The translations under genes and the position numbers were made by a program. Below are positions 32,174 to 44,660 of a DNA stretch of 55,568 nt, piece by piece (within the stretch, counting starts at the first letter, position 1; every line of letters starts with the position of its first letter). Location of the stretch: NCBI GenBank assembly GCA_016932755.1, contig JAFGCE010000085.1, forward strand, positions 1-55,568. The letters run 5' to 3'. The stretch is from Candidatus Woesearchaeota archaeon (GTDB lineage Archaea > Nanobdellota > Nanobdellia > Woesearchaeales > JAGWAF01). A model generated the notes under the pieces. That model was not told the DNA's origin and did not search any database. It saw nothing but the letters and a program-made list of their open reading frames with translations.

Positions 32174-33553
32174 ATGGGGTATACTATAAACAATTACAGA
32201 TTCAGGGAACTTGATGATAACTATTTTATCACAACAGACAGCGGGAGCTGGATCGCTTTAAACAAGGATGAATTTAACAGCCTTAAATCCAAAAAAATTG
32301 ATGAAAAATTAAAGCAAAAGCTTTTGCAAAGGGAAATACTCTTAGATGAAACAAACGAAAATGAATTTGTTAATGACTTAAGGAAAAGGAACAGCTTTCT
32401 TTTCCAGGGAGCTTCTTTGCATATTGTTGTAGTTACTTTGAGATGCAACATGAACTGTGTCTACTGCCATGCAAGCTCAGTAAGCCAGGATAAGAAGGGG
32501 TTTGATATGGATAAGGACACTGCGAAAAAAACAGTAGACTTCATATTCCAGTCCCCAAGCCCAAATATAACAATAGAATTCCAGGGGGGTGAGCCACTTC
32601 TTAACTGGGAAATTCTCAAGTTTATTGTCGGTTACGCAAAGCAGAAAAACAGAACAGCAAACAAAAAACTTAGTTTTTCTGTTGTTACAAATCTTTCAAT
32701 GATGGATGAAGAAAAAATGCAGTATCTAATCAGGGAAAGGATCCTTGTTTGCACTTCTCTGGACGGGCCAAAAGAGCTGCATGACAAAAACAGGATATTT
32801 GCAAGTTCCAGCAATTATGGGCAGGTTGTTTTTTGGATTAAAAAATTCATGGAGGAATACAAAAAGAAAAAAATAGAGAATGCCCGGATAAATGCTCTGG
32901 TAACATTGACAAAAAAAAGCCTCGGATATCCTGAAGAGATAGTTGATGAATACGTTAACCTTGGGTTGAATTTTATCCATCTTAGATTCCTAAACAATCT
33001 CGGCGTTGCACAAAAAATATGGCCACAAATAAGCTATTCTGTTGAAGAATACCTTGCTTTTTGGGAAAAAGCCATGGGAAGAATAAAAAAACATCAAAAA
33101 GATGGAAAAGAAATCTCAGAAAGGATTGTTGACATAATAGCTCACAAGATAGGGACAAAATACGACCCAAATTATTTGGACCTGAGAAGCCCCTGCGGGG
33201 TTGCAATAGGGCAACTTGCCTACCATTATAATGGGGATGTTTACACATGTGATGAGGGCAGGATGGTAGGAGATGAAATTTTTCTTTTGGGCAATGTGAA
33301 AAAAGACAGCTATAAGGATGCAGTAACCTGTGACAAGGCTTGCGCTGTCCTGAATGCCTCAATAAATGACCAGTTTGTCTGCGATGCATGCGCGTACAAG
33401 CCTTACTGCGGGCTTTGCCCTGTCTGCAGTTTTTCAGAAGAAGGGAGCATAATTGGAAAGGTTAGCCAGTCTGCGAGATGCAGGATTTTCAAAAGGCAGT
33501 TTGACTGGGTTGTTAAGGAAAGATTTATAAATCAAAAAAAGGACAATAAATAA
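32174..33553 (+). CDS. hxsB: radical SAM/SPASM maturase, HxsB-like
   Basis: CNMNCVYC at 32444-32467, GGEPLL, and a C-terminal SPASM-type Cys cluster (CGV...YTCDEG...CDACAYKPYCGLCPVC...ARC). 459 aa. Confidence 0.8.
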   Translation: MGYTINNYRFRELDDNYFITTDSGSWIALNKDEFNSLKSKKIDEKLKQKLLQREILLDETNENEFVNDLRKRNSFLFQGASLHIVVVTLRCNMNCVYCHASSVSQDKKGFDMDKDTAKKTVDFIFQSPSPNITIEFQGGEPLLNWEILKFIVGYAKQKNRTANKKLSFSVVTNLSMMDEEKMQYLIRERILVCTSLDGPKELHDKNRIFASSSNYGQVVFWIKKFMEEYKKKKIENARINALVTLTKKSLGYPEEIVDEYVNLGLNFIHLRFLNNLGVAQKIWPQISYSVEEYLAFWEKAMGRIKKHQKDGKEISERIVDIIAHKIGTKYDPNYLDLRSPCGVAIGQLAYHYNGDVYTCDEGRMVGDEIFLLGNVKKDSYKDAVTCDKACAVLNASINDQFVCDACAYKPYCGLCPVCSFSEEGSIIGKVSQSARCRIFKRQFDWVVKERFINQKKDNK

Positions 33554-33564: not shown

Positions 33565-33948
33565 ATGGCATCAGTATACAGCAGAATTCCAGTTTTTAAG
33601 AAAAAAATAAGCTCTTTTCTTGCAAAAGAAGACGGCAAGATTAGCAAGGAGAATTTGATTAAAGCAGGCATCTTGGCAGCAATCCTTTCTGCAGGAGCAG
33701 CTGCAAGCGCAAAACAGGTTTCTGCCAGTGTAAGCTGCGACCCGTCATGCAGTGGAAACCCAGACCCGCCTAATGAACTCAATGTAGATAAAGACCTTGA
33801 CCCTATCCATTATAATTTTTTGCGCTTGGGCAAGTCCGGAGGAGCTTTTCAGGGAACCCACGAGCACTGTATAGAATCCTGTCATGTAAGCCATTCCTCT
33901 CATGGCAGCCATGGCAGCCATGGCAGCCATAATTCAACAGGCTGGTGA
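33565..33948 (+). CDS. hxsA: His-Xaa-Ser repeat precursor-like protein (HxsA-like)
   Basis: 127 aa. Basic N-region plus hydrophobic AGILAAILSAGAAASA, two C-x2-S-C motifs, and C-terminal HVS-HSS-HGS-HGS-HGS-HNS-TGW. GAGGT SD. Confidence 0.75.
   Translation: MASVYSRIPVFKKKISSFLAKEDGKISKENLIKAGILAAILSAGAAASAKQVSASVSCDPSCSGNPDPPNELNVDKDLDPIHYNFLRLGKSGGAFQGTHEHCIESCHVSHSSHGSHGSHGSHNSTGW
33883..33936 (+). repeat. six in-frame His-Xaa-Ser codon triplets, including a perfect 3 x 9-bp tandem repeat (catggcagc, 33901-33927)
   Basis: Read directly from the sequence. Confidence 0.95.
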
Positions 33949-33970
33949 TTATTTTAACAGGCATAATAAA

Positions 33971-34543
33971 ATGGTATCCGAAAAAAGACCAACAATTCTT
34001 TTTTTTGTTTTAATCTTATTCGTTCTCATAGCTCTTGCTTTTTTGATTTATTTCTTTATGATGAGAGAGCCTGAACCAAAAATAAACGAGAGGGAGACAG
34101 TACAATTAGATATCATGATCTCCGAAACAAAAGGCATAACAGATTGCGAAGCCTTAAACTTCACTAATCAGAGTGTTAATTTCACAGATGAGCTATCCCC
34201 TGAAGAATGCAAAAGTTTGCTGTACTTACGAGAAATAGTTAAAAGAGGGGACTGCTCCTTGTCTCCTGCGGGCTACTTTGACGAGGAAATAATACTTGAA
34301 GGTGAAGTAACAAAATACTGCGAAGCCATAATTTCAGGGGATGCAAGCAAATGCAGCGATATAAATGTAGACACGATGAAGATTAGTTGCCGGTATTTTG
34401 CTGCAAGACTTGTCCAAGCGTACAGGGAAAAGAATGCAGCCCTGTGCGAATTAAATAAAGATGAGAGTTATACAGTACCTATTGAAAGCGAGGATTATTT
34501 TTTCCCATTAGATGTCTGCAAAGCATTGTCTGCAATGCCTTAA
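33971..34543 (+). CDS. N-terminally membrane-anchored Cys-rich protein
   Basis: ATG at 33971 (MVSEKRPTILFFVLILFVLIALAFLIYFFMM), then about 150 aa with 8 Cys. Last gene of the plus-strand Hxs string. Confidence 0.55.
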   Translation: MVSEKRPTILFFVLILFVLIALAFLIYFFMMREPEPKINERETVQLDIMISETKGITDCEALNFTNQSVNFTDELSPEECKSLLYLREIVKRGDCSLSPAGYFDEEIILEGEVTKYCEAIISGDASKCSDINVDTMKISCRYFAARLVQAYREKNAALCELNKDESYTVPIESEDYFFPLDVCKALSAMP

Positions 34544-36837
34544 TTCTCTTCATTGACTACCTCTATTTTTTTGGAAATATCATCTAACTTGCTGAACAAT
34601 TCCTTATTATCCAAGAATTTATTTTTTACTAAAAAAACTGGAAAATTTATTTCAAAATCAGAAGTTGATGAAGCATATTTTGAGAACATAAACGGGGAAA
34701 TTTCGCTAAAAAATCCTTTTGCCCCGGGCTTCCAATAAGGGTGCATGTTGAATACCTTGATTCCTGAATTTAGATAGCTCTGGAAATGTACCGTGCCTGG
34801 TTTTATCTGGAAAGGGTATGCTAATAATGAAGTATTTTCTGATTTTAAATTATGAAAAAATTCATAAGAAGCGTCCATATCCTCTTTTTTCTCTTGGGGA
34901 GAGCCAAAAATATAAGAGTAAGTCACTTTAAGATTAGAATTCCCGATAACAGGAATTATTTTCTTTATATGATCAATATACTCTTGTGGATTTTGGCTTT
35001 TATTGAAAAATTTTATGATGCTTGGGAATACGGATTCAATGCCTATAAAGAATTCGAGATTCTTGTTTTCTAATTTTTTAATTAGCTCTTTTGAAAAACT
35101 ATCAATCCTTGTCTGCAGACTGAATCTCATATCAAATTTGCCGAATAAGTTCAGCAAATTTTTCCCTCTTTCGCAACTAGGGTTAAATGACGAATCCTTA
35201 ATTTGTATTGCATTAATGTCATAAAGCTTGGATAATCTTGCCAGCTGGTTTTTAACATAATCCTCACTAAAGACGGTGCGGGGAGAGCAGGAATTATGCA
35301 TACAGAAACTGCATTTATTGGTGCATCCGACCGAAGTAAAGATTTCCGCCCTCTTGCCATAACTCTTGATGTTAAAACCCTCAAAGTCGTCATAGTCAAA
35401 AACAACCGGATTTTCCTCAGACGGTCTTCCGTAATTTATTTTGCGTGCATCTGTATTTTTTTTTAGGTAAATCTTTTCAATTAATTCAAGAACTTCCTTC
35501 CTTCCTGTGGCTATGTAGCTCTCATCCCCCTTGCAATTTCTGATTATGCAAGACAGAATTTTTGGCTCCAAAAAAAAGGAGTAAAAAATTATTTTCGTAT
35601 TTGAATCCTTCTTTAGCCTCTCTATTAGCTCAAGTGAGAATAGTATGTCTGATCTGGGTGTGGCAGAAAACACTAGTATTTTGGGGCTCATGCCAAGCAC
35701 TTTATTTTTTATTGAATCAATTGCTTTCTCTCTTTTTTCCCTTATCTCTTCCTCTTTTTTGGAGTCATAAAGCCCCCTTATGCAGGAAGAGAAATCAAGC
35801 CCTGTGCACCTGTCCTTGAATTTTTGTTTTGCTTCTTTCAGGAGCATAGCAAAATGAGGGAAGGGAGGTCTTCCGCTCGCATTTCTTTCTAGCACAGGTA
35901 TCCAAATGAATAGCGTGTCTTGGTGATTTTTTTTGGGCAATGTGGGGTAGTACTTAAGGTATTCTTTCCAATATCCCTCGCATTTATCGGAATACGCACA
36001 TTTTTCGCATTTGTAAATTTTTGTCCTTGCTATACTCTTCCTGTTTTTTTCAACTGATTTATTTATGAAGTCAGGAGCTATATGCTCGGTATGGAATGTT
36101 TGTGTTTCGTGTAGCTCGCTGATTTGGCTGTGGTACTCTTCATTTACATAGCATAAAGGGTAATACCTAACATGCCAGTGTCTTGCTTTTATTTCTCTTC
36201 CAAATTTTAAAAGATTGTTTACATAAGGCGAAACCTGCTCATAAGTGGGGACAACTTCCAAGAAATTATTCTTTGTAGCGCCATGGGTGGGATCCACGAA
36301 TATAAATTCAGAGTTCCGTATCCCCATACCAAAAATTAATTTGCCTATCTCCAGAAGATTTTTATAATTTTGTTTAACAATTGTTGTATTAGAGCCAATA
36401 TTTTTGAATCCAATCTCCTGCAGGTTTTTTATGCCTTCTCTTAGCTGTTCAAAACTTCCGGGAACTTGTGTTAATTTGTCATGGAGCTCTGCATTATGCC
36501 CGTGTATTGAAAAGACGATATGGCTGAGCCCGCATTCGATAATTTTTCTTGCAAAATCCTTTTTTGAGAACATTCTGCCGTTAGTGGCAATCATTATTGT
36601 CCGGAAATCAAGTTTTTTTGCAAATGCAATAATCCCTAAAATATCCTTCCTTATTGTAGGTTCTCCCCCGATAAATTCTATGTAATCTGCCCCGCTTTTT
36701 TTTGCATTAATAATATCCTTCTTCACTTCCTCGGTCGTTTTATCTTTTATCTTCTGTCTTTTGTTTTCATTGCAGCAGAAAATACATTTGTTGTTGCATG
36801 AATACCCCATAAGTATTACTGTTTTCTTAATTTTCAT
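34540..36837 (-). CDS. dual radical SAM protein (HxsC-like-type module + class-B-like second radical SAM domain)
   Basis: CNNKCIFC at 36775-36798 with a module-ending CEKCAYSDKCEGYWKEY. Second core VGCTNKCSFC at 35302-35325, preceded by a Rossmann-like segment. ATG at 36837 preferred over the TTG at 36858. Confidence 0.8.
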   Translation of the reverse strand: MKIKKTVILMGYSCNNKCIFCCNENKRQKIKDKTTEEVKKDIINAKKSGADYIEFIGGEPTIRKDILGIIAFAKKLDFRTIMIATNGRMFSKKDFARKIIECGLSHIVFSIHGHNAELHDKLTQVPGSFEQLREGIKNLQEIGFKNIGSNTTIVKQNYKNLLEIGKLIFGMGIRNSEFIFVDPTHGATKNNFLEVVPTYEQVSPYVNNLLKFGREIKARHWHVRYYPLCYVNEEYHSQISELHETQTFHTEHIAPDFINKSVEKNRKSIARTKIYKCEKCAYSDKCEGYWKEYLKYYPTLPKKNHQDTLFIWIPVLERNASGRPPFPHFAMLLKEAKQKFKDRCTGLDFSSCIRGLYDSKKEEEIREKREKAIDSIKNKVLGMSPKILVFSATPRSDILFSLELIERLKKDSNTKIIFYSFFLEPKILSCIIRNCKGDESYIATGRKEVLELIEKIYLKKNTDARKINYGRPSEENPVVFDYDDFEGFNIKSYGKRAEIFTSVGCTNKCSFCMHNSCSPRTVFSEDYVKNQLARLSKLYDINAIQIKDSSFNPSCERGKNLLNLFGKFDMRFSLQTRIDSFSKELIKKLENKNLEFFIGIESVFPSIIKFFNKSQNPQEYIDHIKKIIPVIGNSNLKVTYSYIFGSPQEKKEDMDASYEFFHNLKSENTSLLAYPFQIKPGTVHFQSYLNSGIKVFNMHPYWKPGAKGFFSEISPFMFSKYASSTSDFEINFPVFLVKNKFLDNKELFSKLDDISKKIEVVNEEN

Positions 36838-37747
36838 TTTTATCTTTCCCGAATTCAATCAAGATGCCCGAAAATTTATCCCTTTTTTCAATAATGTCTT
36901 GGCTTGCATTTGGGATACTTATTGAATCTTTGCTTAAGGTTAATTTTTTGGTTATAAGGAGGGTTTTTCTAAATTTTTCGGAGGGCATATTCAAATTTTT
37001 TCCAGTGCCATTCCCCCCAAACTGGAGACACTTGCTAAATTTGACAGTTCCTGCCGAGAAATAGTTGTTGAATGTTATCTGGAACCTTGTGTCGTGAAAC
37101 AGCCGTATTCCATGCGAGCAGTCAAACCAAAGCAGGATTGGCTTGGACAGCCATCCTGAAATTTTATCTGCAAATGGCTGATTTATTTTTTCAATAAATG
37201 CCAGGATTTCCTTGTTGTATTTGATAGTTTTTTCGCAGCCGAAACTGCATGGCTGGTGAAAGCTCAATGAGAGGTTATGGGGATACAAAAGCCAGTTGCA
37301 GTAGCAGGACTTAATTCCTTTGAGTTTTTTTAGTAAATGTTCGTGCGCTTCCTCCTTATTTTTTTTGATTAGACTGGCTTGGTCATTTATGCAGCAGAGA
37401 GGATAGCCAAGAGCTTTTGCAAAGTCGAGCATTTCTTTTTCTGTTTGCTTTTCGTATTTGTTTTCAGGGTCATTCAGGGAGTAGTATTCTGCCAGTTCCT
37501 TGTCTTTGGAAATATATGCTGGAAGCAACAAGCCTCTTCCCTTTCCAAAAGAAACATGTACATCAAAAAGTTTGAAAATCTTGGCAAACTTTTCTTTATT
37601 TTCTTTGTGCACATGCATCTTAGCCAAGTTTTTGATTCCGCTTATTACAGCATAACTATTTGCGCTTATTGGGAAAAAAGATATGACTTTGTCATGTATC
37701 TTCTTGTATTTCTTTAGTTGCTGCTCGCTGCATCTTGTCTTGTCCAT
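36827..37747 (-). CDS. hypothetical Cys-motif protein (GYPLCC ... HQPCSFGCE)
   Basis: 306-aa ORF embedded in the coupled operon. Conserved-looking Cys/His motifs; no family named. Confidence 0.6.
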   Translation of the reverse strand: MDKTRCSEQQLKKYKKIHDKVISFFPISANSYAVISGIKNLAKMHVHKENKEKFAKIFKLFDVHVSFGKGRGLLLPAYISKDKELAEYYSLNDPENKYEKQTEKEMLDFAKALGYPLCCINDQASLIKKNKEEAHEHLLKKLKGIKSCYCNWLLYPHNLSLSFHQPCSFGCEKTIKYNKEILAFIEKINQPFADKISGWLSKPILLWFDCSHGIRLFHDTRFQITFNNYFSAGTVKFSKCLQFGGNGTGKNLNMPSEKFRKTLLITKKLTLSKDSISIPNASQDIIEKRDKFSGILIEFGKDKNEN

Positions 37748-37750
37748 TTT

Positions 37751-38620
37751 TTATTTTCCCGTGTCTTTCACTGGCATGAACTCATTTTCGCCAAAAAAAT
37801 CTAGATAGCTTTTCCATATTCCAGAGCATTCGCTCTTTTTTTGACACAAACTGCACTTTTCAGCAAAAACAACTGATGAAGAGTCCGCAGTGACCCCTTT
37901 TGAATACTCCCACAGCCCTTTTGGCAGGGTGCAGTGGGGGAAATGGAACAGCCATACTTTATATCCTTTTGAAATCAATTTTTTTATTGGAGCCTCGAGA
38001 ACTTCAGATAGCTTAGTTATCCTCTCAGCTACAAATTTGGCATTCTTGCCGGCAGTTCCTGTCAATTTCGGGTTCATAATAACTATTGAATTAAAGTTGC
38101 GGCTTTCAAAGTTATCAATTATAAAATCTGCAATTTCGTTGAAATGCGCGTAATTCATCTTGTGGAGCAGAATCCTTAGCTCAATCTTCACATTGTTTTT
38201 GGCAAGATTTTTTATTCCCGCTATCTTGTACTTGAAACTTGCAGGGTTTCTTGCTATTGAGTTTTGTATTTTAGGATTATGCCCGTATAAAGTCGTGATT
38301 ATCTTTAGGTTTTTTATCTTTGAGATTCTTTCAGTGAATTTGTTATAATAAAATGACTGGGCGTTTGTCAGAATCCCAATCTCATGCGGGTTCTTTTTTT
38401 CAATATACTTTAAAATTTCCAGCAAATCCTTCCTTAAAGTAGGCTCCCCTCCATTTATCTCTATATGGCTGTGAGACTTCAAAATTTCATCAGCCTCCTT
38501 TTTGATATCTTCAAGAGAGGGGTTTTCCATTCCGTATCTTCTTGAGACAGGGCAGGATATGCAGTTGTCATTGCAATTGTATACCACAGGCACAAATGTT
38601 TTATTCTTTATTTTGTTCAT
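37751..38620 (-). CDS. radical SAM protein (single module of the locus-specific paralog family)
   Basis: CNDNCISC at 38552-38575, GGEPTLRKDL, C-terminal CSLCQKKSECSGIWKSY. Confidence 0.8.
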   Translation of the reverse strand: MNKIKNKTFVPVVYNCNDNCISCPVSRRYGMENPSLEDIKKEADEILKSHSHIEINGGEPTLRKDLLEILKYIEKKNPHEIGILTNAQSFYYNKFTERISKIKNLKIITTLYGHNPKIQNSIARNPASFKYKIAGIKNLAKNNVKIELRILLHKMNYAHFNEIADFIIDNFESRNFNSIVIMNPKLTGTAGKNAKFVAERITKLSEVLEAPIKKLISKGYKVWLFHFPHCTLPKGLWEYSKGVTADSSSVVFAEKCSLCQKKSECSGIWKSYLDFFGENEFMPVKDTGK

Positions 38621-40823
38621 TCTTTATTTCTCCGCAAACACTTTTTAAAAAACATAGACTGCACAATCTATTTTTTTCATCTAGGAAACAGTCTTGGTTT
38701 CCGAGATTATTAAATTCTCCTAAAAAGTTGATATACTCAGCGAGAGAAGGGGCATAGCTTTCATAATCTTCAAAATACTCGGGCTCAAAGAACTCAAAAT
38801 GAAGGGGCACTTTTTTATCTTCAGCAAAGGAAATTATGCCTGGCAGGTATTTCTTAAATGAGGACGGCGAAAAACAGAGCTTTTTTGCATTTAAAACGCC
38901 TCTTCCTTTTGGGGCAAATTTCTGGATATTGAACTTATTGACCCCGATTTCATGAAATTCCTTTATAACAGGCAAGATGTCATTCAGGTTGTCCTTAATA
39001 CAGACATAATTTATCCTGACATTAACCCATTCTCTGACAAGATTTATTATGCCTCTTCTTGTTTCTTTGTACGCCCCTTTTACCTGTGTTATTCTGTCGT
39101 GGGTCTGCTCGCTTCCATGAACAGCGACTATTGCACTATTTAATCCGCTCTTGGCTGTGGCTCTAGCGAATTCTTTATTGGAAAATCTCCTGCCGTTTGT
39201 TACAACTCCAATTCTCTGTATTTTCCTGTCAGCGAAAAATCTGATTAGCTTTAGCAGGCTCTTTGCGTATATTGTCGGCTCACCGCCTGTAAAAAATATT
39301 TCTTCGGGCTTCTTTTCCAGTATTTTTTTAACCTGGAACAAAACTTCTTCTTCATTTTTTTTGGCTTTGCTATCCCTATTATTGTCCCAGCAAAAAATGC
39401 AGTTGTTGTTGCAGCTATGCCCGAGGATTATATTTATTGATTTTGGCATGTGTTTTTGTTTCTTTAGCTGCAGGTATCTTTTAATAATAACTGATAAATC
39501 AAAGAAAAATAACGAATAAAGAAACCTTTCTTGAGCTTTTTCAGGAAGGAAAAACATTCTGTTTTTTTCTATCCTTGCCATATTTATCCCTTCCAGTTCT
39601 TTCACTTCTTTCCTGAAATCCTGGAGAAACTCAGATTTGAACAGCGATTTGTACTCAGGAAACCTTATGTATTGCCGGCATGCCAATTCGCATAAGAGGT
39701 AATACCTCTTTTGGCTTTTCTCATCAAGTATAACCCCCTCCGCAGACAGTTCATTAGTTCTGTACCTAACCTTATTAAATATATAAGAGCAGGAATATCT
39801 CCCGATGCCGAAACAGCTGCTTTCCATTCTATTGTCAAAAGAATACTCAAAGTCAAACGAATGCCTTTTTTTTGACAGCAAAAACCATGGAGAGGCTGTC
39901 CTTATGTTGTCCAACAAGGGTCTGTGTAATTCATAATCCTTAACTTTCTCTTTAATGAGCCGGGATAATATTTTGATTTTTTTATTAAGCTGGTTGTAAT
40001 AAAATTTAACATCACCCTTAAAATTATTATCAAGGTATTGATTTGTCGGCTGGAGGGGGTAAAGGGAGATTGAAGACGGGTTAAGTTCGACAAGTTTCTT
40101 TAGGCTTTCAAAAACAGTATTGGCTGAATCCTTTTTAAGACCGACGATTAAATCCAGGCCAACATGCTTTATTCCATACTCCTTCACAAGCCTAACCATC
40201 TTTTTTATTTTTTCATAATCTTGATAAGACCTGTTTTCGGATTCAAGAACCTCTTTATCGAGTGACTGAACCCCCAATGATATAGAGTTAATGCCGTATT
40301 TTTCCAATATCCTCAATTTTTCCTGGTTCAGGCTGTCGGGATTGCTTTCAAATGTTTTTTTCCCTTTCTTTTCAAATTCAAAATTGGCGAATAGGTTTTT
40401 CAGGAGCACATCAATCTGCTTTTCAGATAATATGCTGGGGGTTCCTCCGCCTATATAGAGGCTTTTGAACTTTATGCCTTTGAATACGCTGCTGAAGCAT
40501 TTCATTTGACCAACCAAACCCGAAACATATTCATTTATCTCGTTTTCAGAAGAAACCTTTTTTGAGATGTACATGCAGTATTTGCATTTGCTCCTGCAGA
40601 ACGGAATATGGAGGTAGAATTGAAGGCTATCCCTGGATTTCCCAGATTTTATTTCTGCTGCTCTTTCGCTCCATAACCCTTTTATTTCATGCAAACTAAA
40701 ATTTTTCTTTGGCATGACCAAATCCAGGATATCAGGCAGCAAAAAATTATTTTTGTATCCACTTTTTTTAAGCAAATCAGCAACTTCCCCAAAAAATTTT
40801 ATTTTTTGATGTGCAAACTTCAT
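38601..40823 (-). CDS. fusion of a HemN/HemW-like radical SAM domain and a second radical SAM module
   Basis: N-terminal LHIPFCRSKCKYC (40575-40598), YIGGGTPS, ISLGVQS (HemN-like). C-terminal CNNNCIFC (39390-39413), GGEPTIY, ending CSLCFLKSVCG. Confidence 0.8.
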   Translation of the reverse strand: MKFAHQKIKFFGEVADLLKKSGYKNNFLLPDILDLVMPKKNFSLHEIKGLWSERAAEIKSGKSRDSLQFYLHIPFCRSKCKYCMYISKKVSSENEINEYVSGLVGQMKCFSSVFKGIKFKSLYIGGGTPSILSEKQIDVLLKNLFANFEFEKKGKKTFESNPDSLNQEKLRILEKYGINSISLGVQSLDKEVLESENRSYQDYEKIKKMVRLVKEYGIKHVGLDLIVGLKKDSANTVFESLKKLVELNPSSISLYPLQPTNQYLDNNFKGDVKFYYNQLNKKIKILSRLIKEKVKDYELHRPLLDNIRTASPWFLLSKKRHSFDFEYSFDNRMESSCFGIGRYSCSYIFNKVRYRTNELSAEGVILDEKSQKRYYLLCELACRQYIRFPEYKSLFKSEFLQDFRKEVKELEGINMARIEKNRMFFLPEKAQERFLYSLFFFDLSVIIKRYLQLKKQKHMPKSINIILGHSCNNNCIFCWDNNRDSKAKKNEEEVLFQVKKILEKKPEEIFFTGGEPTIYAKSLLKLIRFFADRKIQRIGVVTNGRRFSNKEFARATAKSGLNSAIVAVHGSEQTHDRITQVKGAYKETRRGIINLVREWVNVRINYVCIKDNLNDILPVIKEFHEIGVNKFNIQKFAPKGRGVLNAKKLCFSPSSFKKYLPGIISFAEDKKVPLHFEFFEPEYFEDYESYAPSLAEYINFLGEFNNLGNQDCFLDEKNRLCSLCFLKSVCGEIKNEQNKE

Positions 40824-42751
40824 TTTTTGTAGATTTTTCCGTTTGTTACTTCAAGATAATCCCCTGTTTTTATTAGGTCTGTACAGCCGTCTACTCCAAC
40901 TAAGCAAGGAATTTCCAGCTCCCTGCACACTATTGCAGCGTGAGATATCAAACCGCCTCTTTCTGTGATTACACCCCTGCAGACAGCCATGGCAGTAACA
41001 AGGGAGGGAGAGGTTTCTTCAGCTACAAGAATATCCCCGGGATTTACCTCTTCCTTGCGCCCAACAAAATCAATGATTTTTGCTTTTCCCTCAAAGTTTC
41101 CAGGTGAAGCTATTTTTCCATTCAGAGGAAATCTTCTTTTTTTTCCTGTAGGGACCTCTTTCTTTGCTTCCCTGATTTTTTCTGCCTCTCTGATTATCTG
41201 GGGGATGGTTTTTTCTAGTATAACTCTGAATGGGAGTTTACATAGGGGATTAATGTCGCTTTTTGTTTCCATGTAAAACAATCTTGCATAGTTATGTGAT
41301 ACTACCTCAATAAAATAATTGTTTGCGTCATGCAGCCACAGCAGTTTTTGCAGGTTGTTGACAACAGGAACGTTGGATTCTAATTTTTGCCCGCTTTTTT
41401 TTTGCAATTTCATCCTTAATTCCATAGCGGATTTGCCAGGCATTTTTTTTATCAACCCGGGCTGCGAAAGTATATTAGAGTATAATGCTTTTCCGCTTTT
41501 GAAAATAGAAAGAAGATTCATGCTGGTAAGAGTCAATTTATCAGGCCTAAAAATATCCGGTCTGCTCTCCTCATTTATTTTGAGTTTTTCCTGCAAATAT
41601 TCCTTGAGTGCAAAAATCAGGAACCTGTTGATTAGGTAGTCAATAAAAAACAAAGTTATCTGGAACCTCTTGAATTTGATGATATAGTCTTTCGCACTTT
41701 TCTCCTTTTCCAGCGAGGTTTGGGCTTGCTTTTCCTGAAACTTAAGAATTTTTTCAATAAACTTGTCTATTATCTTTTTATCTAATATTTTTATATAAGT
41801 TTCCTCTATAATTTTAGAATACGAGCCGTAATCTATGAGTATATCAGAGGACTTTTTTTCCATGCTCTGTATTCTTGTCCTGAAACCCAGCTTTTCCAGC
41901 AATAAGTTAAGGTTGCTTAAGGATACATCTTCAACATGCAGCCCATGTTTTTCTGCACTTCGGAATATAAAATGCTCTCTTACCCTTAGCGGTGCAGTAA
42001 TCTTCCTCATCTGGGTTATCCATACTTTTCCGTTTCTGACAACAAATTCAAGGTCAGCATTTTCCCAACCAAACTCATTTATTTCCTTGGGCAGGTTTTT
42101 GAAGCTGTTTATGAATCCATAATTTTTAACTTTCTTGTCGTTCAAAAGCAAAAATCCATTTTTTAGCGCAAAAATTTTAGGATTTATCCTGCCGAGCTCC
42201 ACATCAGATGAAGAGCCTTCAGCAAATTCAACAAAAAGAGAGCTGTCTTTTTTATTGTAAAATGCAACGCCTCCCAAATCAGGTTCTATGTATTCCTGGA
42301 TTATTACCCCCATTCCTGTTTTCTGCTTGATTCCCTTTGTTCTAATGTATTCTGCAGCCCTGGGGTTAAACTGGCTGTGCCATACTTTCTTGATATTTTC
42401 CGGTATATGTTTTGCAGGGCACTTAATTGAGTCAAACAATCCTGCAAAACTGTGCTTTTCAGTATCCTCAAAAAAATATGAAGACCGCAGAATCGGATTT
42501 TTTATGTTAAGATTGATTAACCCCTTGTTTATCTCGCTTAATAGATTGTCGTCAAACATGTTTTCAAATATAATTTTCTTCATCTGGTTTTTGTCTAGGT
42601 TACTAAAATCCGGTTTTTTCAAATGATCAAAAAATACAGAACTGTCTAAAACAAGGAAATTCGGGCAAAGGTTTTTTTTGTCTAATCTTATTAGATTTTC
42701 AGCCTTCGCCCCGATTCCTGTTTTTTTATTCTTGATTATTATGCTGTGCAT
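40820..42751 (-). CDS. PEP-utilising enzyme family phosphotransferase (N-terminal PPDK-type ATP-grasp, C-terminal swivel-His domain)
   Basis: N-terminal GIGAKAENLIRL...FLVLDSSVF. C-terminal PGDILVAEETSPSLV...ERGGLISHAAIVCRELEIPCLVG. ATGA overlap with the downstream gene. Confidence 0.8.
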   Translation of the reverse strand: MHSIIIKNKKTGIGAKAENLIRLDKKNLCPNFLVLDSSVFFDHLKKPDFSNLDKNQMKKIIFENMFDDNLLSEINKGLINLNIKNPILRSSYFFEDTEKHSFAGLFDSIKCPAKHIPENIKKVWHSQFNPRAAEYIRTKGIKQKTGMGVIIQEYIEPDLGGVAFYNKKDSSLFVEFAEGSSSDVELGRINPKIFALKNGFLLLNDKKVKNYGFINSFKNLPKEINEFGWENADLEFVVRNGKVWITQMRKITAPLRVREHFIFRSAEKHGLHVEDVSLSNLNLLLEKLGFRTRIQSMEKKSSDILIDYGSYSKIIEETYIKILDKKIIDKFIEKILKFQEKQAQTSLEKEKSAKDYIIKFKRFQITLFFIDYLINRFLIFALKEYLQEKLKINEESRPDIFRPDKLTLTSMNLLSIFKSGKALYSNILSQPGLIKKMPGKSAMELRMKLQKKSGQKLESNVPVVNNLQKLLWLHDANNYFIEVVSHNYARLFYMETKSDINPLCKLPFRVILEKTIPQIIREAEKIREAKKEVPTGKKRRFPLNGKIASPGNFEGKAKIIDFVGRKEEVNPGDILVAEETSPSLVTAMAVCRGVITERGGLISHAAIVCRELEIPCLVGVDGCTDLIKTGDYLEVTNGKIYKK

Positions 42752-44531
42752 TTTTTTGTCCTAGAATAATCTTGCTTCCAGGCTGGTCCATGGAAATATA
42801 TTTTTCATAATTGCTTTTTGCGACATCTATCAGGTTTTTTGGGGGTATGGTTGTTGTTATTATGCTAACCCCTTTTCTAAAAAGGGCTTTCGGATAAAGC
42901 AAGGCACTTCTTCCGAAAATAAAAACCATCTTTGCCTGTAGGGCATTTCTTATTATGCTTTCAAATGTGCCATTAGGGATGGTAGAGCCTGATAGCACCA
43001 GCACATCACTTTTTTTTATTATATCTTCTTTTACTTCCTTGTAAAAAAACGCCTCCTTGCCCGTTTCCTTCTTGAATTTAGCATATTCCTTTTCTATTTG
43101 CTGTTTTCTTTTATGGTCTGTAAAAAATCCCCTGTCAAAGATGTGGATTTCGGCTGCTTTTGAATATTCAACAAACCCATGCAGTGCGAATCCAACTTGG
43201 GAGATTACAGGATTTTCCGCGCTTTTTTCTTGGGGGTATTCTTCCAGTGTGTTTTTTTTGATTATGCTGCTTTTAATCAGGGCTGCGGAATTAAGCGCTG
43301 CTGTATAAAGGCTGAATAATCTTGCATTGTTCCTGAAGGGAATTGTGAACCCGTCCTTTTTTAGGTTTAGTTCTGAATCAACATAAAAATCCCTTAACCA
43401 TTCATTCTCCAGTTCTTTCCATCCGCCTATGCACAGGCATGTCCCGCAAAATCCCTTGTCATTGACAGCAACAGGATAAAATGAAAGCAAAGCCTCCTTG
43501 ATTAATATTTTTGAAACGCTTAACTCTTCAAAAAGCTCTTTGGCTGTTGCTTTCAATATATTGCCTGAAATACCCTCTTCTGTTTCAAGTTTGCTTAGTT
43601 TTTCAAATATTGGCTTTTGTTCAACCATAGCGATATGCTTTTTTATAGTATTAAACTCCTTATTTCCTAATTTTTCGGGATATTCCTTCCACGGACCCTC
43701 ACAAATCGGGTTATAACCGCAGCCATCGCACTGAGGGAATTTTGCTTTCCCTTTCTCCTTCCTTTGCTTTGTAAAGCTGTCTGTGTTCTGGTGCTTCTGC
43801 CCTCGTATTTCTGTTTCTGGAATCACTTTCTCAGAAATGTAAGCCTCATAACCAGCCATCTGGCAGTAAGGCATTGCCTCTGCCATAACTTTTTTGCCTG
43901 CATCAATCCCAATCTGAAGCCCATTGTGAATGTAAGGTGCTGCCAGAGATATTGAAGGGACAATACTGTCAAAATTATTCCATGCATTCCCCATTGGGTG
44001 GACAAAAGCAAACTGGAACTGGTCAACATTAAGATTCACAAGCAGTTTTGCTATATCAGGCAGATTCCTGTAGTTCGGCTTTACAACAACTGTGTTTGTA
44101 AGGACATACTGCCCAAGTGATTTCAGGTTTTTTATTCCCTGAACAGTCTGTCTGAAGCTTCCAGGAGCTCTTGTAAGGAAGTCATGCTGTTCTGCGCAAT
44201 AGCCGTGTATTGCAGGGGAAAACTCTGTTGCCCCTGCTTTTATTGCTTTTTTGCAGAAATTAAGCGATGAGAACATCCTGCCGTTTGTCTGGATTTGTAT
44301 TGTTTTATAGCCAAGACTTTTTGCATATTCAACAATATCAAGAAAATCTTTTCTTATAGTAACCTCTCCGCCTGTAAGAACAACTCCTTCACATCTTTTT
44401 CTTGAATCTTCCAAATCTTTTTTTATCCCTTCCAGAGACCGGTTTCCTTTGCATTTGTTGTCTGCTTGGACACAGAATCTGCAGTTATTGTTGCAAATAA
44501 ATCCAGTCTTGATATCCACCCTTTTTCCCAT
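42726..44531 (-). CDS. radical SAM module fused to a DUF4213/DUF364-like (putative chelation, Rossmann-like) domain
   Basis: CNNNCRFC at 44472-44495, GGEVTIRKDF, CDGCGYNPICEGPWKEY. C-terminal AALNSAAL...DVLVLSGSTIPNGTFESII...VFIFGRSALLYPKALFRKGVS resembles the DUF364 pattern. Confidence 0.7.
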   Translation of the reverse strand: MGKRVDIKTGFICNNNCRFCVQADNKCKGNRSLEGIKKDLEDSRKRCEGVVLTGGEVTIRKDFLDIVEYAKSLGYKTIQIQTNGRMFSSLNFCKKAIKAGATEFSPAIHGYCAEQHDFLTRAPGSFRQTVQGIKNLKSLGQYVLTNTVVVKPNYRNLPDIAKLLVNLNVDQFQFAFVHPMGNAWNNFDSIVPSISLAAPYIHNGLQIGIDAGKKVMAEAMPYCQMAGYEAYISEKVIPETEIRGQKHQNTDSFTKQRKEKGKAKFPQCDGCGYNPICEGPWKEYPEKLGNKEFNTIKKHIAMVEQKPIFEKLSKLETEEGISGNILKATAKELFEELSVSKILIKEALLSFYPVAVNDKGFCGTCLCIGGWKELENEWLRDFYVDSELNLKKDGFTIPFRNNARLFSLYTAALNSAALIKSSIIKKNTLEEYPQEKSAENPVISQVGFALHGFVEYSKAAEIHIFDRGFFTDHKRKQQIEKEYAKFKKETGKEAFFYKEVKEDIIKKSDVLVLSGSTIPNGTFESIIRNALQAKMVFIFGRSALLYPKALFRKGVSIITTTIPPKNLIDVAKSNYEKYISMDQPGSKIILGQKNAQHNNQE

Positions 44532-44606
44532 GCAGTTTTTAAATTACTGAATGTTAATAAATTTATTGATAATCTAGTATATAATCCATATATCAAATAT
44601 CACAAG

Positions 44607-44616
44607 CTTTATATAT
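44607..44616 (+). promoter_or_regulatory. TATA-like box in the divergent intergenic region
   Basis: 'ctttatatat' 45-54 nt upstream of the ATG at 44661, with AGAGGT SD at 44652-44657. A second TATA-like 'tatatac' on the minus strand (about 44576-44590) faces the radical SAM operon. Confidence 0.4.
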
Positions 44617-44660
44617 GAAAATAGGGTAAAATTACCTATTTTATTTAAAAAAGAGGTAAA

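What the first reader, a model, noticed from the sequence alone, without database searches (positions are those of the whole stretch)
34540..44531. Six-gene translationally coupled operon built around four paralogous radical-SAM modules
Neighbouring genes nearly all overlap: 42726-42751 (26 nt), 40820-40823 (ATGA), 38601-38620 (20 nt) and 36827-36837 (11 nt). The 38620/37747 pair is 3 nt apart.

Four modules are clearly paralogous: the N-termini of the 601-aa and 765-aa proteins, the C-terminus of the 740-aa protein, and the 289-aa protein. They share:
- CN(N/D)(N/K)C(I/R)(F/S)C
- GGE(P/V)T(I/L)(R/Y)
- TNG(R)xFS
- (I/V)HG...H(D)..T...G(S/A)(F/Y)......GI.NL
- a terminal C-x2-C-x5-C-x-G, followed in three of the four modules by x-WK-x-Y; the 740-aa module ends ...CGEIKNE with no WKxY

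Repeated duplication and fusion of one module suggests several chemically similar modification steps at different sites. Six HxS units and four Cys are available in the facing precursor. Whether these modules correspond to the missing HxsC is open.
Basis: partly seen in the sequence, partly recalled or inferred. Interest (0 to 1): 0.8.

Follow-up and report, generated by a model that had tools for sequence, protein, structure and literature searches.

The report
Expanded archaeal His-Xaa-Ser maturase operon
This six-gene operon from a Woesearchaeota (DPANN) archaeon carries four HxsC-type radical-SAM modules and sits beside a His-Xaa-Ser repeat protein, forming a conserved, much enlarged archaeal version of the four-gene bacterial HXS antiphage system; what it does in archaea is untested.

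Summary
Six minus-strand genes overlap exactly as described. Four ~290-aa radical-SAM modules are true paralogs (BLASTP 1e-11 to 6e-64), distinct from the three other radical-SAM domains in the locus.

All four score best against HxsC/HxsC4 models, but below the curated cut-offs. They share the C-terminal CX2CX5C-x-G motif with annotated bacterial HxsC.

The unit is larger than reported (30367-44531). The plus strand carries an A24-type peptidase, HxsD, a small HxsD-like protein, a bona fide HxsB, the HxS precursor and a membrane protein.

This core plus a multi-HxsC operon recurs in at least 9 other archaeal loci. It also recurs in 26 of 37 long metagenomic loci found with the 601-aa module.

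Each window module has closer relatives in other genomes (34-80% identity) than among its window paralogs (26-39%). The duplications are therefore old. Related Bacillota systems have a single HxsC.

Best reading: leader-guided, multi-step maturation of an exported HxS-repeat protein. Function is inferred only by analogy with bacterial HXS (Li et al. 2026).

It is a new variant of a known kind. The chemistry, the substrate of each module and the biological role are untested.

The parts
42726..44531 (-). 601-aa fusion protein and first gene of the operon. The N-terminal HxsC4-like radical-SAM module is aa 1-300 (43632-44531). The C-terminal half (42729-43631) contains DUF364. This is the module type present in essentially all related archaeal loci.
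   Evidence: - NCBIfam HxsC4 scores 153 bits (cut-off 500) and HxsC 101 bits.
- Pfam hits are Radical_SAM and DUF364.
- CNNNCRFC, GGEVTIR and CDGCGYNPICEGPWKEY are present.
- Orthologs are 66-80% identical and usually first in the operon.
40820..42751 (-). 643-aa PEP-utilising-type phosphotransferase. It has an N-terminal ATP-grasp (PPDK_N, aa 54-196) and a C-terminal swivelling His domain (aa 570-635, GGLISHAAIV). It has no PEP/pyruvate TIM-barrel domain.
   Evidence: - Pfam PPDK_N and PEP-utilizers both score above their gathering thresholds.
- NCBIfam hits to PEP synthase, PigC, RedH and Rph are all far below cut-off.
- PDB sequence hits cover only the mobile domain.
- Mobile-domain fusions to the 601N-type module occur elsewhere: P0011, P0013, P0017 and L052, L063.
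38601..40823 (-). 740-aa fusion protein. The HemN-like radical-SAM domain is aa ~56-300 (39924-40658). The C-terminal HxsC-like module is aa 455-740 (38604-39461).
   Evidence: - The N-terminus hits STM4012, HemZ and HemW at 149-168 bits, below their cut-offs.
- The C-terminus hits HxsC at 109 bits.
- The same fusion occurs in L006, an 896-aa protein (HemN part 49%, module 34%).
37751..38620 (-). 289-aa stand-alone HxsC-like radical-SAM protein. Of the four modules it is the closest to canonical HxsC.
   Evidence: - TIGR03977 scores 173 bits over the full length (cut-off 268).
- It is the best window match of the Bacillota, Acidiphilium and Hymenobacter HxsC.
- In its family C16/C20/C23, GGE, C230 and C256/C259/C265 are invariant.
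- The AF2 model has pLDDT 94.
36827..37747 (-). 306-aa protein of the DUF483 family, with conserved GYPxCC and HxPCSxxC motifs. Its function is unknown. It is a recurrent fusion partner of HxsC-like modules.
   Evidence: - PF04467 scores 19.6 bits (gathering threshold 25), but 38 of 40 relatives match it.
- There are 125 representative homologs, about 14 of them C-terminal fusions.
- Fusions are seen in P0127, P0036 and the L005 609-aa protein.
- No structural neighbour was found.
34540..36837 (-). 765-aa fusion protein. The N-terminal HxsC4-like module is aa 1-300 (35938-36837). The C-terminal half (34543-35937) is a B12-type (PhpK-like) radical-SAM domain.
   Evidence: - HxsC4 scores 147 bits; PhpK-family scores 54 bits over aa 448-665.
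- Orthologs of 770-795 aa carry PF02310 B12-binding: P0019, P0031, P0034, P0038.
- A second CX3CX2C (CTNKCSFC) is visible in the translation.
33565..33948 (+). 127-aa HxsA-like precursor. It has a conserved leader (KKKISSFLAKEDGKISKENLIKAG), a short hydrophobic stretch, an AxA-like site, 4 Cys, six C-terminal HxS units and a terminal Trp.
   Evidence: - The ORF and its repeats were found.
- HxsA3 scores 32 bits (N-terminus) and HxsA4 23 bits (C-terminus), both sub-threshold.
- Homologous precursors occur in all related loci.
- Archaeal relatives score 37-53 bits on HxsA4 (cut-off 55).
32174..33553 (+). 459-aa HxsB, a radical-SAM/SPASM maturase.
   Evidence: - TIGR03978 scores 462.8 bits, above the cut-off of 370.
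- Pfam SPASM is matched.
31559..31996 (+). 145-aa HxsD.
   Evidence: - TIGR03976 scores 46.6 bits (cut-off 50).
- The 57%-identical ortholog in L001 carries PF27806 HxsD.
31968..32171 (+). 67-aa conserved small protein, tentatively a short HxsD-like paralog.
   Evidence: - It is conserved between HxsD and HxsB in the archaeal loci.
- It shows weak similarity to the HxsD N-terminus.
- The corresponding 85-aa protein of L112 hits HxsD at 32%.
30367..31548 (+). 393-aa polytopic membrane protein of the A24 (prepilin/preflagellin peptidase) type, with an Arc_PepC domain. It is the candidate leader peptidase.
   Evidence: - Arc_PepC scores 25.8 bits (above its threshold of 23.4); Peptidase_A24 scores 20.7 (below 26.5).
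- Both catalytic Asp motifs are conserved in 12 homologs, including the Bacillota ones.
33971..34543 (+). Membrane-anchored, Cys-rich protein of ~190 aa. The ORF is listed from 33902, but its first 23 codons overlap the HxS repeats in another frame. It is not conserved in other loci. Its stop overlaps the stop of the 765-aa gene (34540-34543).
   Evidence: - The translation and junction are shown.
- It has no BLAST counterpart in related loci.
- It has no Pfam hit.

Best explanation
The six genes are the enlarged 'HxsC arm' of an archaeal His-Xaa-Ser (HXS-type) protein-maturation system that spans 30367-44531.

Shown here:
- The operon encodes four HxsC-family radical-SAM modules. Each has an intact CX3CX2C/GGE SAM-cluster site and a four-Cys C-terminal auxiliary-cluster motif.
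- It also encodes a HemN-like and a B12-type radical-SAM domain, a swivelling-His phosphotransferase, a DUF364 domain and a DUF483 protein.
- It converges on a gene set for an A24-type peptidase, HxsD, a small HxsD-like protein, HxsB and an HxS-repeat precursor.
- This pairing is conserved across many DPANN-type archaeal loci.
- The 601N-type module is the constant member. The other modules and domains are a variable accessory set.

Inferred:
- HxsB and the HxsC-like enzymes bind the conserved ~35-residue leader of the precursor in the cytoplasm, probably with HxsD and the small protein.
- They install several different radical-mediated modifications on the C-terminal HxS/Cys region. Candidates are cross-linking or C-H functionalisation by the HxsC-like modules, C-methylation by the HemN-like and B12-type domains, and phosphoryl transfer by the 643-aa enzyme.
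- The leader is then removed, either by the A24-type peptidase at the conserved Gly or by signal peptidase at the AxA site.
- The modified HxS array is exposed at the outer face of the membrane.

More speculative, by analogy with bacterial HXS: the mature protein acts at the envelope, for example against incoming viral DNA.
For: Family assignment:
- For all four modules, HxsC and HxsC4 are the two top NCBIfam hits.
- An HMM of the four modules scores 115-485 bits over its full length on modules elsewhere. It scores only 30-49 bits on HxsB.
- Annotated HxsC from Acidiphilium and Hymenobacter share P-x-C-x-L-P...W...CX2CX5C-x-G-aromatic. Their best window match is the 289-aa protein.
- Mutating the second cluster of E. 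coli HxsC abolishes defence (PMC13128918).

Core genes:
- HxsB scores above its cut-off.
- HxsD scores 46.6 against a cut-off of 50, and its ortholog carries PF27806.

Synteny:
- L001/2, L005(=L003), L006, L007, L008, L010, L011, L043 and L044 all carry peptidase-HxsD-small-HxsB-HxsA plus 2 to at least 6 HxsC-like modules.
- Of 37 metagenomic loci of at least 9 kb found with the 601N module, 19 hold HxsB and 26 hold at least one core hallmark. Most of the rest are cut off inside the operon.
- Relative to L001, the whole cluster is inverted as one block next to the same TtcA-like/RNase P p30 gene pair.

Fusions and precursors:
- The operon's separate proteins and domains (DUF364, DUF483, PEP-utilizer, B12, HemN) occur fused to these modules in other genomes.
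- Precursors share the leader in all loci.
- The Bacillota relatives are bona fide HxsA3/HxsB/HxsC/HxsD systems with one HxsC and the same peptidase family.
Against: - No experiment bears on this locus.
- None of the four modules reaches the curated HxsC (268) or HxsC4 (500) cut-off.
- The operon is on the opposite strand from the precursor, so co-regulation is not shown.
- The module family also occurs without Hxs genes in a Myxococcaceae genome (L042).
- 11 of 37 long metagenomic loci show no core gene in the sequence available.
- Some fold neighbours and accessory domains act on small molecules. These are BlsE and GDGT-MAS, DUF364 Orf5 acting on methyl-SAM, and the Rph/PigC-like phosphotransferases.
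- Deep branches of the module tree are unresolved (13% bootstrap for 289 plus all HxsC).
- Against a defence role:
  - The cluster lies among housekeeping genes at a conserved chromosomal position.
  - Its core is more conserved than its flanks (HxsB 64% and 601N 66% against 45-52%).
  - PADLOC gives only generic radical-SAM hits.
Confidence: 0.7

Rival explanations
1. One module per site. The four HxsC-like modules perform the same chemistry on different HxS units or Cys residues of the precursor. The expansion would simply supply more or position-specific catalysts.
For: - All four keep identical cofactor motifs.
- Across de-duplicated archaeal loci, module number and HxS number correlate weakly (rho 0.47, p 0.036, n 20).
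Against: - The correlation vanishes among loci with at least 3 modules (rho 0.03, n 16).
- Bacillota systems with a single HxsC have 10-13 HxS units.
- L001 has 5 modules for 4 units, and L005 has up to 7 for 6 units.
- The paralogs are old, only 26-39% identical to one another, and each is tied to different fused tailoring domains.
Confidence: 0.15
2. Independent small-molecule, cofactor or lipid pathway. The operon makes or modifies a metabolite, for example a SAM-derived or envelope-lipid compound. It would then be merely a conserved neighbour of the HxsA/B/D genes, or supply a group that is attached later.
For: - Homologs occur without Hxs genes in Myxococcaceae, fused to peroxiredoxin and to a methyltransferase.
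- The one characterised DUF364 enzyme acts on 4''-methyl-SAM and co-occurs with B12 radical-SAM enzymes (PMC12930334).
- The Rph/PigC-type enzymes named among the 643-aa protein's NCBIfam matches act on small molecules (substrate class from general knowledge).
- The best structural neighbours include BlsE and GDGT-MAS.
- GT2, kinase and methyltransferase fusions occur.
Against: - The best family matches are peptide/protein-maturase HxsC types.
- Every cofactor or lipid family hit is far below its cut-off.
- Linkage to HxsB/HxsD/HxsA holds through inversions and both convergent and co-directional layouts.
- Minimal archaeal loci have only the 601N-type module as their HxsC-family partner for HxsB, HxsD and HxsA (L059, L066, L070).
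- SkfB and SuiB, both peptide maturases, are equally good structural neighbours.
Confidence: 0.15
3. Same maturation machinery, different biological role. The mature His-rich product would be a metal-binding or metal-trafficking, adhesion or host-interaction factor of an episymbiotic DPANN cell, not an antiviral barrier.
For: - The cluster sits among housekeeping genes at a conserved chromosomal position, beside large secreted Cys-rich, Ig-like and TSP3-repeat surface proteins.
- The core is more conserved than the flanking housekeeping genes.
- Repeated His-Gly-Ser units and conserved Cys pairs are typical metal ligands (sequence; general knowledge).
- No defence genes are nearby, and no viral copies were found.
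Against: - The only experimentally studied HXS system is antiviral, and its HxS repeats are all required for that (PMC13128918).
- Bacterial plasmid copies sit beside toxin-antitoxin and Abi genes.
- Nothing here measures metal binding.
Confidence: 0.3

Closest known systems
Bacterial HXS antiphage system (HxsD-HxsB-HxsC-HxsA; Haft & Basu 2011 families TIGR03976-03979; Li et al., Nat Commun 2026, PMC13128918)
   Same: - An HxS-repeat protein.
- An HxsB radical-SAM/SPASM enzyme (above cut-off here).
- HxsD.
- HxsC-type radical-SAM enzymes with a second C-terminal Fe-S motif.
- N-terminal processing and export of the repeat protein.
   Different: - The bacterial system has four genes and one HxsC. 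It is reported as 99.7% Pseudomonadota, with a fixed D-B-C-A order and a peptidoglycan-binding domain in HxsA.
- This locus is archaeal. It has four HxsC-like modules plus two other radical-SAM domains and three accessory proteins or domains in a separate convergent operon.
- It also has a dedicated A24-type peptidase, a different leader, and no PG-binding domain.
Bacillota 'HxsA3' systems (L012-L014: HxsD, A24-like peptidase, HxsC, HxsB, HxsA3)
   Same: - The same HxsB clade (35-39% identity).
- The same peptidase family, with both Asp motifs.
- A related leader (P.IK..SDF.YEEEGNI[ST]R...G) followed by a hydrophobic stretch and HxS repeats.
   Different: - They have a single HxsC that passes the TIGR03977 cut-off (282-311 bits).
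- They have no accessory radical-SAM operon.
- Their precursors pass the HxsA3 cut-off. The window precursor does not (32 bits against 65).
NCBIfam HxsA4 / HxsC4 (NF038313, NF038332)
   Same: - HxsC4 is the best-scoring model for the 601N- and 765N-type modules, matched over the full length.
- HxsA4 is the best-scoring model for most archaeal precursors (37-53 bits against a cut-off of 55).
   Different: - The modules score ~150 bits against a cut-off of 500. They are distant relatives and not members.
- The composition of the curated HxsA4/HxsC4 loci could not be inspected here.
Multi-radical-SAM RiPP pathways (for example polytheonamide Poy, ruminococcin C with two maturases); from general knowledge
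   Same: - Leader-guided modification of one ribosomal precursor by several radical-SAM enzymes.
- These include B12-type methylases.
   Different: - Here there are 7 radical-SAM domains per locus (about 10 in L003/L005).
- Most belong to one HxsC-like family.
- The product looks like an exported or anchored protein and not a secreted small peptide.
Archaeal class III signal peptide substrates with dedicated A24 peptidases (FlaK, PibD, EppA); from general knowledge
   Same: - An A24/Arc_PepC-type peptidase is encoded next to its presumed substrate.
- The substrate has a charged leader ending in a conserved Gly, followed by a hydrophobic stretch.
   Different: - The leader is ~35 residues, unusually long.
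- The hydrophobic stretch is short (12-15 residues) and is followed by an AxA-like site.
- Sec/signal peptidase I processing is therefore an equally good reading.
- No pilus-assembly genes are in the cluster.

Membership tests
Radical SAM superfamily (PF04055) | CX3CX2C cluster motif, GGE SAM-binding motif, and a Pfam score above the gathering threshold | tested here: met
   - All four modules have CX3CX2C and GGE.
- PF04055 scores 60-140 bits against a gathering threshold of 29.5 for each protein.
- The HemN-like and B12-type domains have their own CX3CX2C.
HxsC (TIGR03977, equivalog) | Whole-protein score at or above the curated cut-off of 267.9 bits | tested here: not met
   The scores are 173 bits (289 aa), 109 (740 C-terminus), 101 (601 N-terminus) and 94 (765 N-terminus). 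The Bacillota HxsC in related loci score 282-311.
HxsC (TIGR03977, equivalog) | Second, C-terminal Fe-S motif (CxxC...C), as in E. coli HxsC C342/C345 | tested here: met
   - CX2CX5C lies near the C-terminus of all four modules.
- The upstream P-x-C is invariant in the 289-aa family.
- The same motif occurs in annotated Acidiphilium and Hymenobacter HxsC.
- The functional importance of this cluster in E. coli HxsC is reported in PMC13128918.
HxsC (TIGR03977, equivalog) | Encoded next to HxsB in an HxsA/HxsD locus | tested here: inconclusive
   The modules are in the same 14-kb cluster as HxsB, HxsD and HxsA, and the association is conserved. They are not adjacent to HxsB and lie on the opposite strand.
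HxsC4 (NF038332) | Score at or above 500 bits | tested here: not met
   The 601 N-terminus scores 153 bits and the 765 N-terminus 147 bits, both matched over the full length. Stand-alone orthologs score 150-163.
HXS system (as defined by Haft & Basu 2011 and Li et al. 2026) | HxsB present (TIGR03978 at or above 370 bits) | tested here: met
   The score is 462.8 bits.
HXS system (as defined by Haft & Basu 2011 and Li et al. 2026) | HxsA: a protein with tandem His-Xaa-Ser repeats | tested here: met
   - There are six HxS units in the C-terminal 40 residues.
- The curated models are not reached: HxsA3 32 bits against 65, HxsA4 23 against 55, and no TIGR03979 hit.
HXS system (as defined by Haft & Basu 2011 and Li et al. 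2026) | HxsD present (TIGR03976 at or above 50 bits, or PF27806) | tested here: inconclusive
   The score is 46.6 bits, just below the cut-off. The 57%-identical ortholog in L001 has a precomputed PF27806 hit.
HXS system (as defined by Haft & Basu 2011 and Li et al. 2026) | [quoted passage not shown] | tested here: not met
   The unit has 12 genes. The HxsC-like genes are in a separate convergent operon. The precursor has no Pfam domain.
HXS system (as defined by Haft & Basu 2011 and Li et al. 2026) | Confers resistance to viruses by blocking DNA entry | not testable with these tools
   This is known only by analogy. PADLOC 2023 has no HXS model and gave only generic pVip hits.
SPASM / twitch auxiliary-cluster domains | A match to the SPASM model (PF13186) or its seven-Cys pattern; for twitch, a shortened domain with one auxiliary cluster | tested here: inconclusive
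   - None of the four modules hits PF13186 at E of 0.01 or better, whereas HxsB does.
- Only four conserved Cys are present, enough for one cluster.
- The top Foldseek neighbours include BlsE and SkfB, which are twitch-type enzymes by general knowledge, and the SPASM enzyme SuiB. TM is ~0.6 and identity 15-20%.
- The model coordinates could not be inspected for Cys geometry.
Peptidase A24 (prepilin/preflagellin peptidase), for the 393-aa protein | Two catalytic Asp motifs (D...I.N and GxGD-like) in a polytopic membrane protein, plus a Pfam match | tested here: met
   - 'TSYTDIKYGKIKN' and the invariant 'W.AGD.KL' are conserved in 12 homologs.
- Arc_PepC scores 25.8 bits, above its threshold of 23.4. 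PF01478 scores 20.7, below 26.5.
DUF483 (PF04467), for the 306-aa protein | Pfam score at or above the gathering threshold of 25 | tested here: inconclusive
   The window protein scores 19.6 bits. However, 38 of 40 aligned relatives match PF04467, with a best E of 1e-10.
PEP-utilising dikinase-type phosphotransferases (PEP synthase, Rph, PigC) | An ATP-grasp domain plus a swivelling His domain; for the named equivalogs, a score above cut-off | tested here: inconclusive
   - Both Pfam domains score above their thresholds, and the catalytic-His motif GGLISHAAIV is present.
- All equivalog scores (92-130 bits) are far below their cut-offs of 598-1350.

The most novel reading that the evidence does not exclude
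DPANN archaea carry a combinatorial HXS-like system. In it a small, leader-bearing and possibly pilin-like (A24-processed) HxS-repeat protein is remodelled by up to about ten radical-SAM domains and displayed on the cell surface. The 601N-type HxsC would be the invariant catalyst. A shuffled set of HxsC paralogs, methylases, phosphotransferases and glycosyltransferases would generate lineage-specific chemistry. The product would serve as an envelope barrier to viral DNA entry or as a host-interaction factor. If so, it would be among the most radical-SAM-dense protein maturation pathways described, and the first HXS-type system in archaea.
Probability: 0.3. Interest if true: 0.85.

Novelty: new variant of a known kind. 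Interest (0 to 1): 0.66.

Why it matters
HXS was shown only in 2026 to be an antiphage system. Its radical chemistry is unsolved: a +8 Da change on one HxS unit has been mapped, with no in vitro reconstitution (PMC13128918).

That survey looked only at bacteria and found an almost invariant four-gene system. The archaeal loci described here show three new things:
- The HxsC family has diversified into several conserved paralog lineages with distinct fused tailoring domains.
- A dedicated A24-type peptidase belongs to one branch of HXS systems.
- The system reaches small-genome DPANN archaea, where about 14 kb is spent on it.

This gives natural 'dissections' of the pathway, from minimal loci with one module to loci with eight. 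It also provides Rosetta-stone links for two domains of unknown function (DUF483, DUF364). Finally, it offers a set of soluble, highly conserved enzymes that may be easier to reconstitute than the E. coli ones.

Tried and rejected
- An exact-sequence look-up of the 601-aa protein in the contig index found nothing. Its identity came from the homolog search instead.
- Rfam on the whole window gave no RNA family.
- PADLOC gave only generic viperin-like radical-SAM hits and nothing for the non-radical-SAM proteins.
- The viral contig scan with the 601N module found no relatives.
- PDB sequence searches for the DUF364 half and for the 306-aa protein found nothing. A profile of DUF483 relatives against the PDB gave only spurious hits.
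- The AF2 model of the 306-aa protein (pLDDT 85) has no significant Foldseek neighbour (best 2guk, E 0.015). Its function stays unknown.
- The word-index homolog search for the 306-aa protein found one relative only. The exhaustive representative search was needed.
- The Haft & Basu 2011 paper could not be read.
- The first bootstrap script timed out. The faster version gives only moderate support: 64% for the 601 clade, 63% for 765, 51% for 289, 36% for 740, and 13% for the deep grouping of 289 with all HxsC. I therefore rest the orthology claims mainly on identity levels and shared fusion architectures.
- I considered recent tandem duplication and rejected it, because cross-genome identities exceed within-window identities.
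- I considered heme, molybdopterin or tetraether-lipid radical-SAM roles and rejected them, because all those hits are far below cut-off.
- The sigma-70 promoter and terminator scan was not used, because the organism is an archaeon.

Full report
**1. Observation**

The six minus-strand ORFs and their junctions are exactly as reported:
- 601 aa (42726-44531) and 643 aa (40820-42751) overlap by 26 nt.
- 643 aa and 740 aa (38601-40823) share an ATGA.
- 740 aa and 289 aa (37751-38620) overlap by 20 nt.
- 289 aa and 306 aa (36827-37747) are separated by 3 nt.
- 306 aa and 765 aa (ATG 36837, stop 34540) overlap by 11 nt.

Overlaps are also frequent among the plus-strand genes next door. They indicate a compact operon and are not a peculiarity.

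The four ~290-aa modules align with 25-39% identity. The invariant residues are CX3CX2C, GGE, TN and a C-terminal CX2CX5C.

Their pairwise BLASTP E-values are 1e-11 to 6e-64. Any of them against HxsB, the HemN-like domain or the B12-type domain of the same locus gives 1e-6 or worse. The paralogy is therefore specific and not just shared radical-SAM ancestry.

The 740-aa module ends C-x2-C-x5-C-G.

**2. What the six genes encode**

- *601 aa.* N-terminal module with best hit HxsC4 (NF038332, 153 bits, cut-off 500) and then HxsC (TIGR03977, 101 bits). The C-terminal half contains DUF364.
- *643 aa.* ATP-grasp (PPDK_N) plus a C-terminal swivelling-His domain (GGLISHAAIV), with no PEP/pyruvate domain. 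Among the NCBIfam families it matches, all far below cut-off, are rifampicin phosphotransferase and PigC/RedH as well as PEP synthase.
- *740 aa.* HemN/HemW/STM4012-like radical-SAM domain (149-168 bits, below cut-offs) fused to an HxsC-like module (109 bits).
- *289 aa.* Full-length match to HxsC (173 bits, cut-off 268).
- *306 aa.* DUF483 family. It scores 19.6 bits itself, but 38 of 40 relatives match PF04467.
- *765 aa.* HxsC4-like module (147 bits) fused to a PhpK-like B12-type radical-SAM domain. Orthologs carry PF02310.

The operon thus holds six radical-SAM domains, and the locus holds seven with HxsB.

**3. The unit is larger than the finding**

The plus strand carries six further genes:
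- a 393-aa polytopic membrane protein (30367-31548);
- HxsD (31559-31996; TIGR03976 46.6 bits against 50; ortholog PF27806);
- a conserved 67-aa protein (31968-32171);
- HxsB (32174-33553; 462.8 bits, above the cut-off of 370);
- the HxS precursor (33565-33948);
- a non-conserved membrane-anchored Cys-rich protein whose stop overlaps that of the 765-aa gene.

The 393-aa protein matches Arc_PepC above threshold and Peptidase_A24 just below. Both catalytic aspartate motifs are conserved in 12 homologs.

The contig is from a Candidatus Woesearchaeota archaeon. Its flanking genes are archaeal housekeeping genes: PheRS, Hef, RNase P p30 and IscS/IscU.

**4. Comparative evidence**

*Loci found through HxsB and through homologs of the 601-aa protein.* Searching GTDB genomes with the window HxsB, and looking up homologs of the 601-aa protein, gave nine further distinct archaeal loci: L001/2, L005=L003, L006, L007, L008, L010, L011, L043 and L044.
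- All have peptidase-HxsD-small protein-HxsB-HxS precursor plus an operon with 2 to at least 6 HxsC-like modules. The operon is convergent in most and co-directional in L043 and L044.
- L004 carries the peptidase, HxsD, the small protein and at least seven modules. No HxsB or precursor lies within the fetched 22.6 kb.
- L003/L005 carries eight radical-SAM genes in a row.
- Relative to L001, the whole cluster is inverted as one block next to the same TtcA-like/RNase P p30 gene pair.

*Metagenome scan with the 601N module.*
- The scan returned 80 loci, of which 37 are at least 9 kb long.
- 19 of these contain HxsB, and 26 contain at least one core hallmark.
- Most of the remaining 11 end inside the radical-SAM operon.

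*Architecture of the operons.* The 601N-type module is usually the first gene of the operon. It is the only HxsC-family member in minimal loci (L059, L066, L070). It is therefore the constant HxsC of this archaeal system, and the other modules are a variable accessory set.

*Bacillota relatives (L012-L014).* These are bona fide HxsA3/HxsB/HxsC/HxsD systems with one HxsC and the same peptidase family.

*Age of the paralogs.* Each window module has closer relatives in other genomes than in its own operon:
- 601N 66-80% identity;
- 765N 49-69%;
- 289 45-62%;
- 740C 34%, with the same HemN fusion.

Window paralogs are only 26-39% identical to one another. An NJ tree recovers these four clades with moderate bootstrap support of 64, 63, 51 and 36%. 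The deeper grouping of the 289 clade with canonical HxsC is seen in the full tree but has 13% bootstrap. It rests mainly on HMM and BLAST scores.

*Fusions.* In other genomes the modules are fused to DUF364, DUF483, the PEP-utilizer mobile domain, B12-binding domains, HemN-like domains, methyltransferases, GT2, kinases, DUF362/ferredoxin and peroxiredoxin. This links the separate proteins of this operon functionally.

**5. The modules themselves**

- In the 289-aa family, C16/C20/C23, GGE, C230 and C256/C259/C265 are invariant. Four Cys are thus available for one auxiliary cluster.
- Annotated HxsC from Acidiphilium and Hymenobacter carry the same P-x-C-x-L-P...W...CX2CX5C-x-G-aromatic signature.
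- In E. coli HxsC, mutating the second cluster reduces HxsA processing and abolishes defence (PMC13128918).
- The Pfam SPASM model is not matched by any of the four modules, although HxsB does match it.
- The AF2 model (pLDDT 94) has only distant neighbours: BlsE, GDGT-MAS, SkfB and SuiB, with TM ~0.6 and 15-20% identity.
- This is compatible with a shortened, twitch-like auxiliary domain but does not prove it.

**6. Precursors**

All loci encode 87-214-aa proteins with the same layout:
- a conserved leader (archaeal consensus P.[LI]KKKI.SFL.KE[DE]GKISKE.L.K.G);
- a 12-15-residue hydrophobic stretch;
- an AxA-like site;
- a variable region, often with a Cys pair (ACPP...EHCN);
- 2-16 C-terminal HxS units in most loci (one locus has 33), usually ending in an aromatic residue.

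Archaeal precursors score best on HxsA4 (37-53 bits, cut-off 55). The Bacillota precursors pass HxsA3.

**7. Mechanism (inference marked)**

*Shown.* The gene content, the cofactor motifs, and the conserved association with HxsB, HxsD, HxsA and the peptidase.

*Inferred.*
- The leader recruits HxsB and the HxsC-like enzymes in the cytoplasm, with HxsD and the small protein as partners. In E. coli, HxsC binds HxsD.
- Several different radical modifications are installed on the HxS/Cys region.
- The HemN-like and B12-type domains may add methyl groups.
- The 643-aa enzyme may phosphorylate a hydroxyl. Kinase and mobile-domain fusions recur elsewhere.
- DUF364 may bind a SAM-derived ligand. Its only characterised member cyclises 4''-methyl-SAM (PMC12930334).
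- The leader is then cut by the A24-type peptidase at the conserved Gly, or by signal peptidase at AxA, and the HxS array is exposed outside the membrane.

*Biological role.* Blocking viral DNA entry is only an analogy with bacterial HXS. Three observations argue against assuming it:
- The cluster has a conserved chromosomal position among housekeeping genes.
- There are no neighbouring defence genes.
- Its core is more conserved than its flanks (64-66% against 45-52%).

**8.

- Module number and HxS number correlate weakly across de-duplicated archaeal loci (rho 0.47, p 0.036, n 20).
- Among loci with at least 3 modules there is no correlation (rho 0.03).
- A single Bacillota HxsC serves 10-13 repeats.

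Together with the age and divergence of the paralogs, I favour different chemistry per module. This is not proven.

**9. Comparison and novelty**

Li et al. surveyed bacteria only. They found HXS to be 99.7% Pseudomonadota and over 99.8% four-gene. Full-text searches found no paper describing archaeal or multi-HxsC versions.

NCBIfam has sub-type models (HxsA2/3/4, HxsC4), so variant systems are partly curated. The window proteins fall below those cut-offs.

I therefore class this as a new variant of a known kind: an archaeal, peptidase-associated, multi-HxsC HXS-type system.

Noticed in passing
window 26696-28250 (+); L003 4927-6189: A cysteine desulfurase (IscS/NifS-like, 393 aa) and an IscU/NifU-like scaffold (127 aa) lie ~2 kb upstream of the cluster. 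This assignment is by reading the translations only. In the related locus L003 an aminotransferase class V gene sits inside the radical-SAM operon. It may be a local Fe-S supply for seven or more radical-SAM domains.
   Followed up: no
window 30367-44531: The whole Hxs cluster is the lowest-GC stretch of the contig (37.2% against 42.5% for the rest). The minimum 10-kb window starts at 34000. The cause, whether horizontal origin or composition of these genes, was not examined.
   Followed up: partly
window 29780-44660 versus L001 9393-20972: Relative to the related archaeal contig L001, the complete cluster (core plus radical-SAM operon) is inverted as a single block next to the same RNase P p30/TtcA-like gene pair. 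A large gene follows at the other end in both (860 aa in the window, 1113 aa in L001), but their homology was not shown.
   Followed up: partly
window 33902-33970: The listed start of the 213-aa ORF (MAAMAAMAA...) is the HGSHGSHGS repeat of the precursor read in another frame. The real start is probably Met24 at 33971, downstream of the precursor stop.
   Followed up: yes
window 34540-34543: The convergent 213-aa and 765-aa genes overlap by their stop codons (4 nt). This leaves no intergenic space for terminators between the two halves of the system.
   Followed up: no
window 44661-54014 (+): Three large genes follow the operon divergently: an 860-aa secreted Cys-rich protein, a 419-aa protein, and a 1845-aa protein with Big_13 and TSP3 repeats. 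A large gene also borders the cluster in L001 and L002. They may be surface proteins functionally related to the exported HxS protein.
   Followed up: partly
L042 (Myxococcaceae, GCA_046351675.1) 2209-5465: Two HxsC4-like modules are fused to a peroxiredoxin and to a class I methyltransferase, next to a rhomboid protease. No HxsA, HxsB or HxsD lies within 10 kb. This is a bacterial use of the module family outside HXS, and many redoxin fusions exist.
   Followed up: partly
window 28247-28720 (-); L004 7761-8120: A CxxC-rich, zinc-ribbon-like protein of 119-157 aa with no Pfam hit lies near the cluster in both the window and L004. Its role is unknown.
   Followed up: no
precursors in window 33565-33948, L001, L005, L006, L007: Several archaeal precursors share a Cys pair in the context (A/D)CP(P/A)...(E/D)HCN, just after the putative AxA cleavage site. 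Most end in Trp, Tyr or Phe. L008 and L010 lack the Cys pair, so it is not universal.
   Followed up: partly
L125 (Acidiphilium plasmid) and L126 (Hymenobacter plasmid): Canonical bacterial HXS loci on plasmids sit next to toxin-antitoxin and Abi-type genes (MbcA/RES, AbiEi). This is a defence-island-like context that the archaeal loci lack.
   Followed up: no
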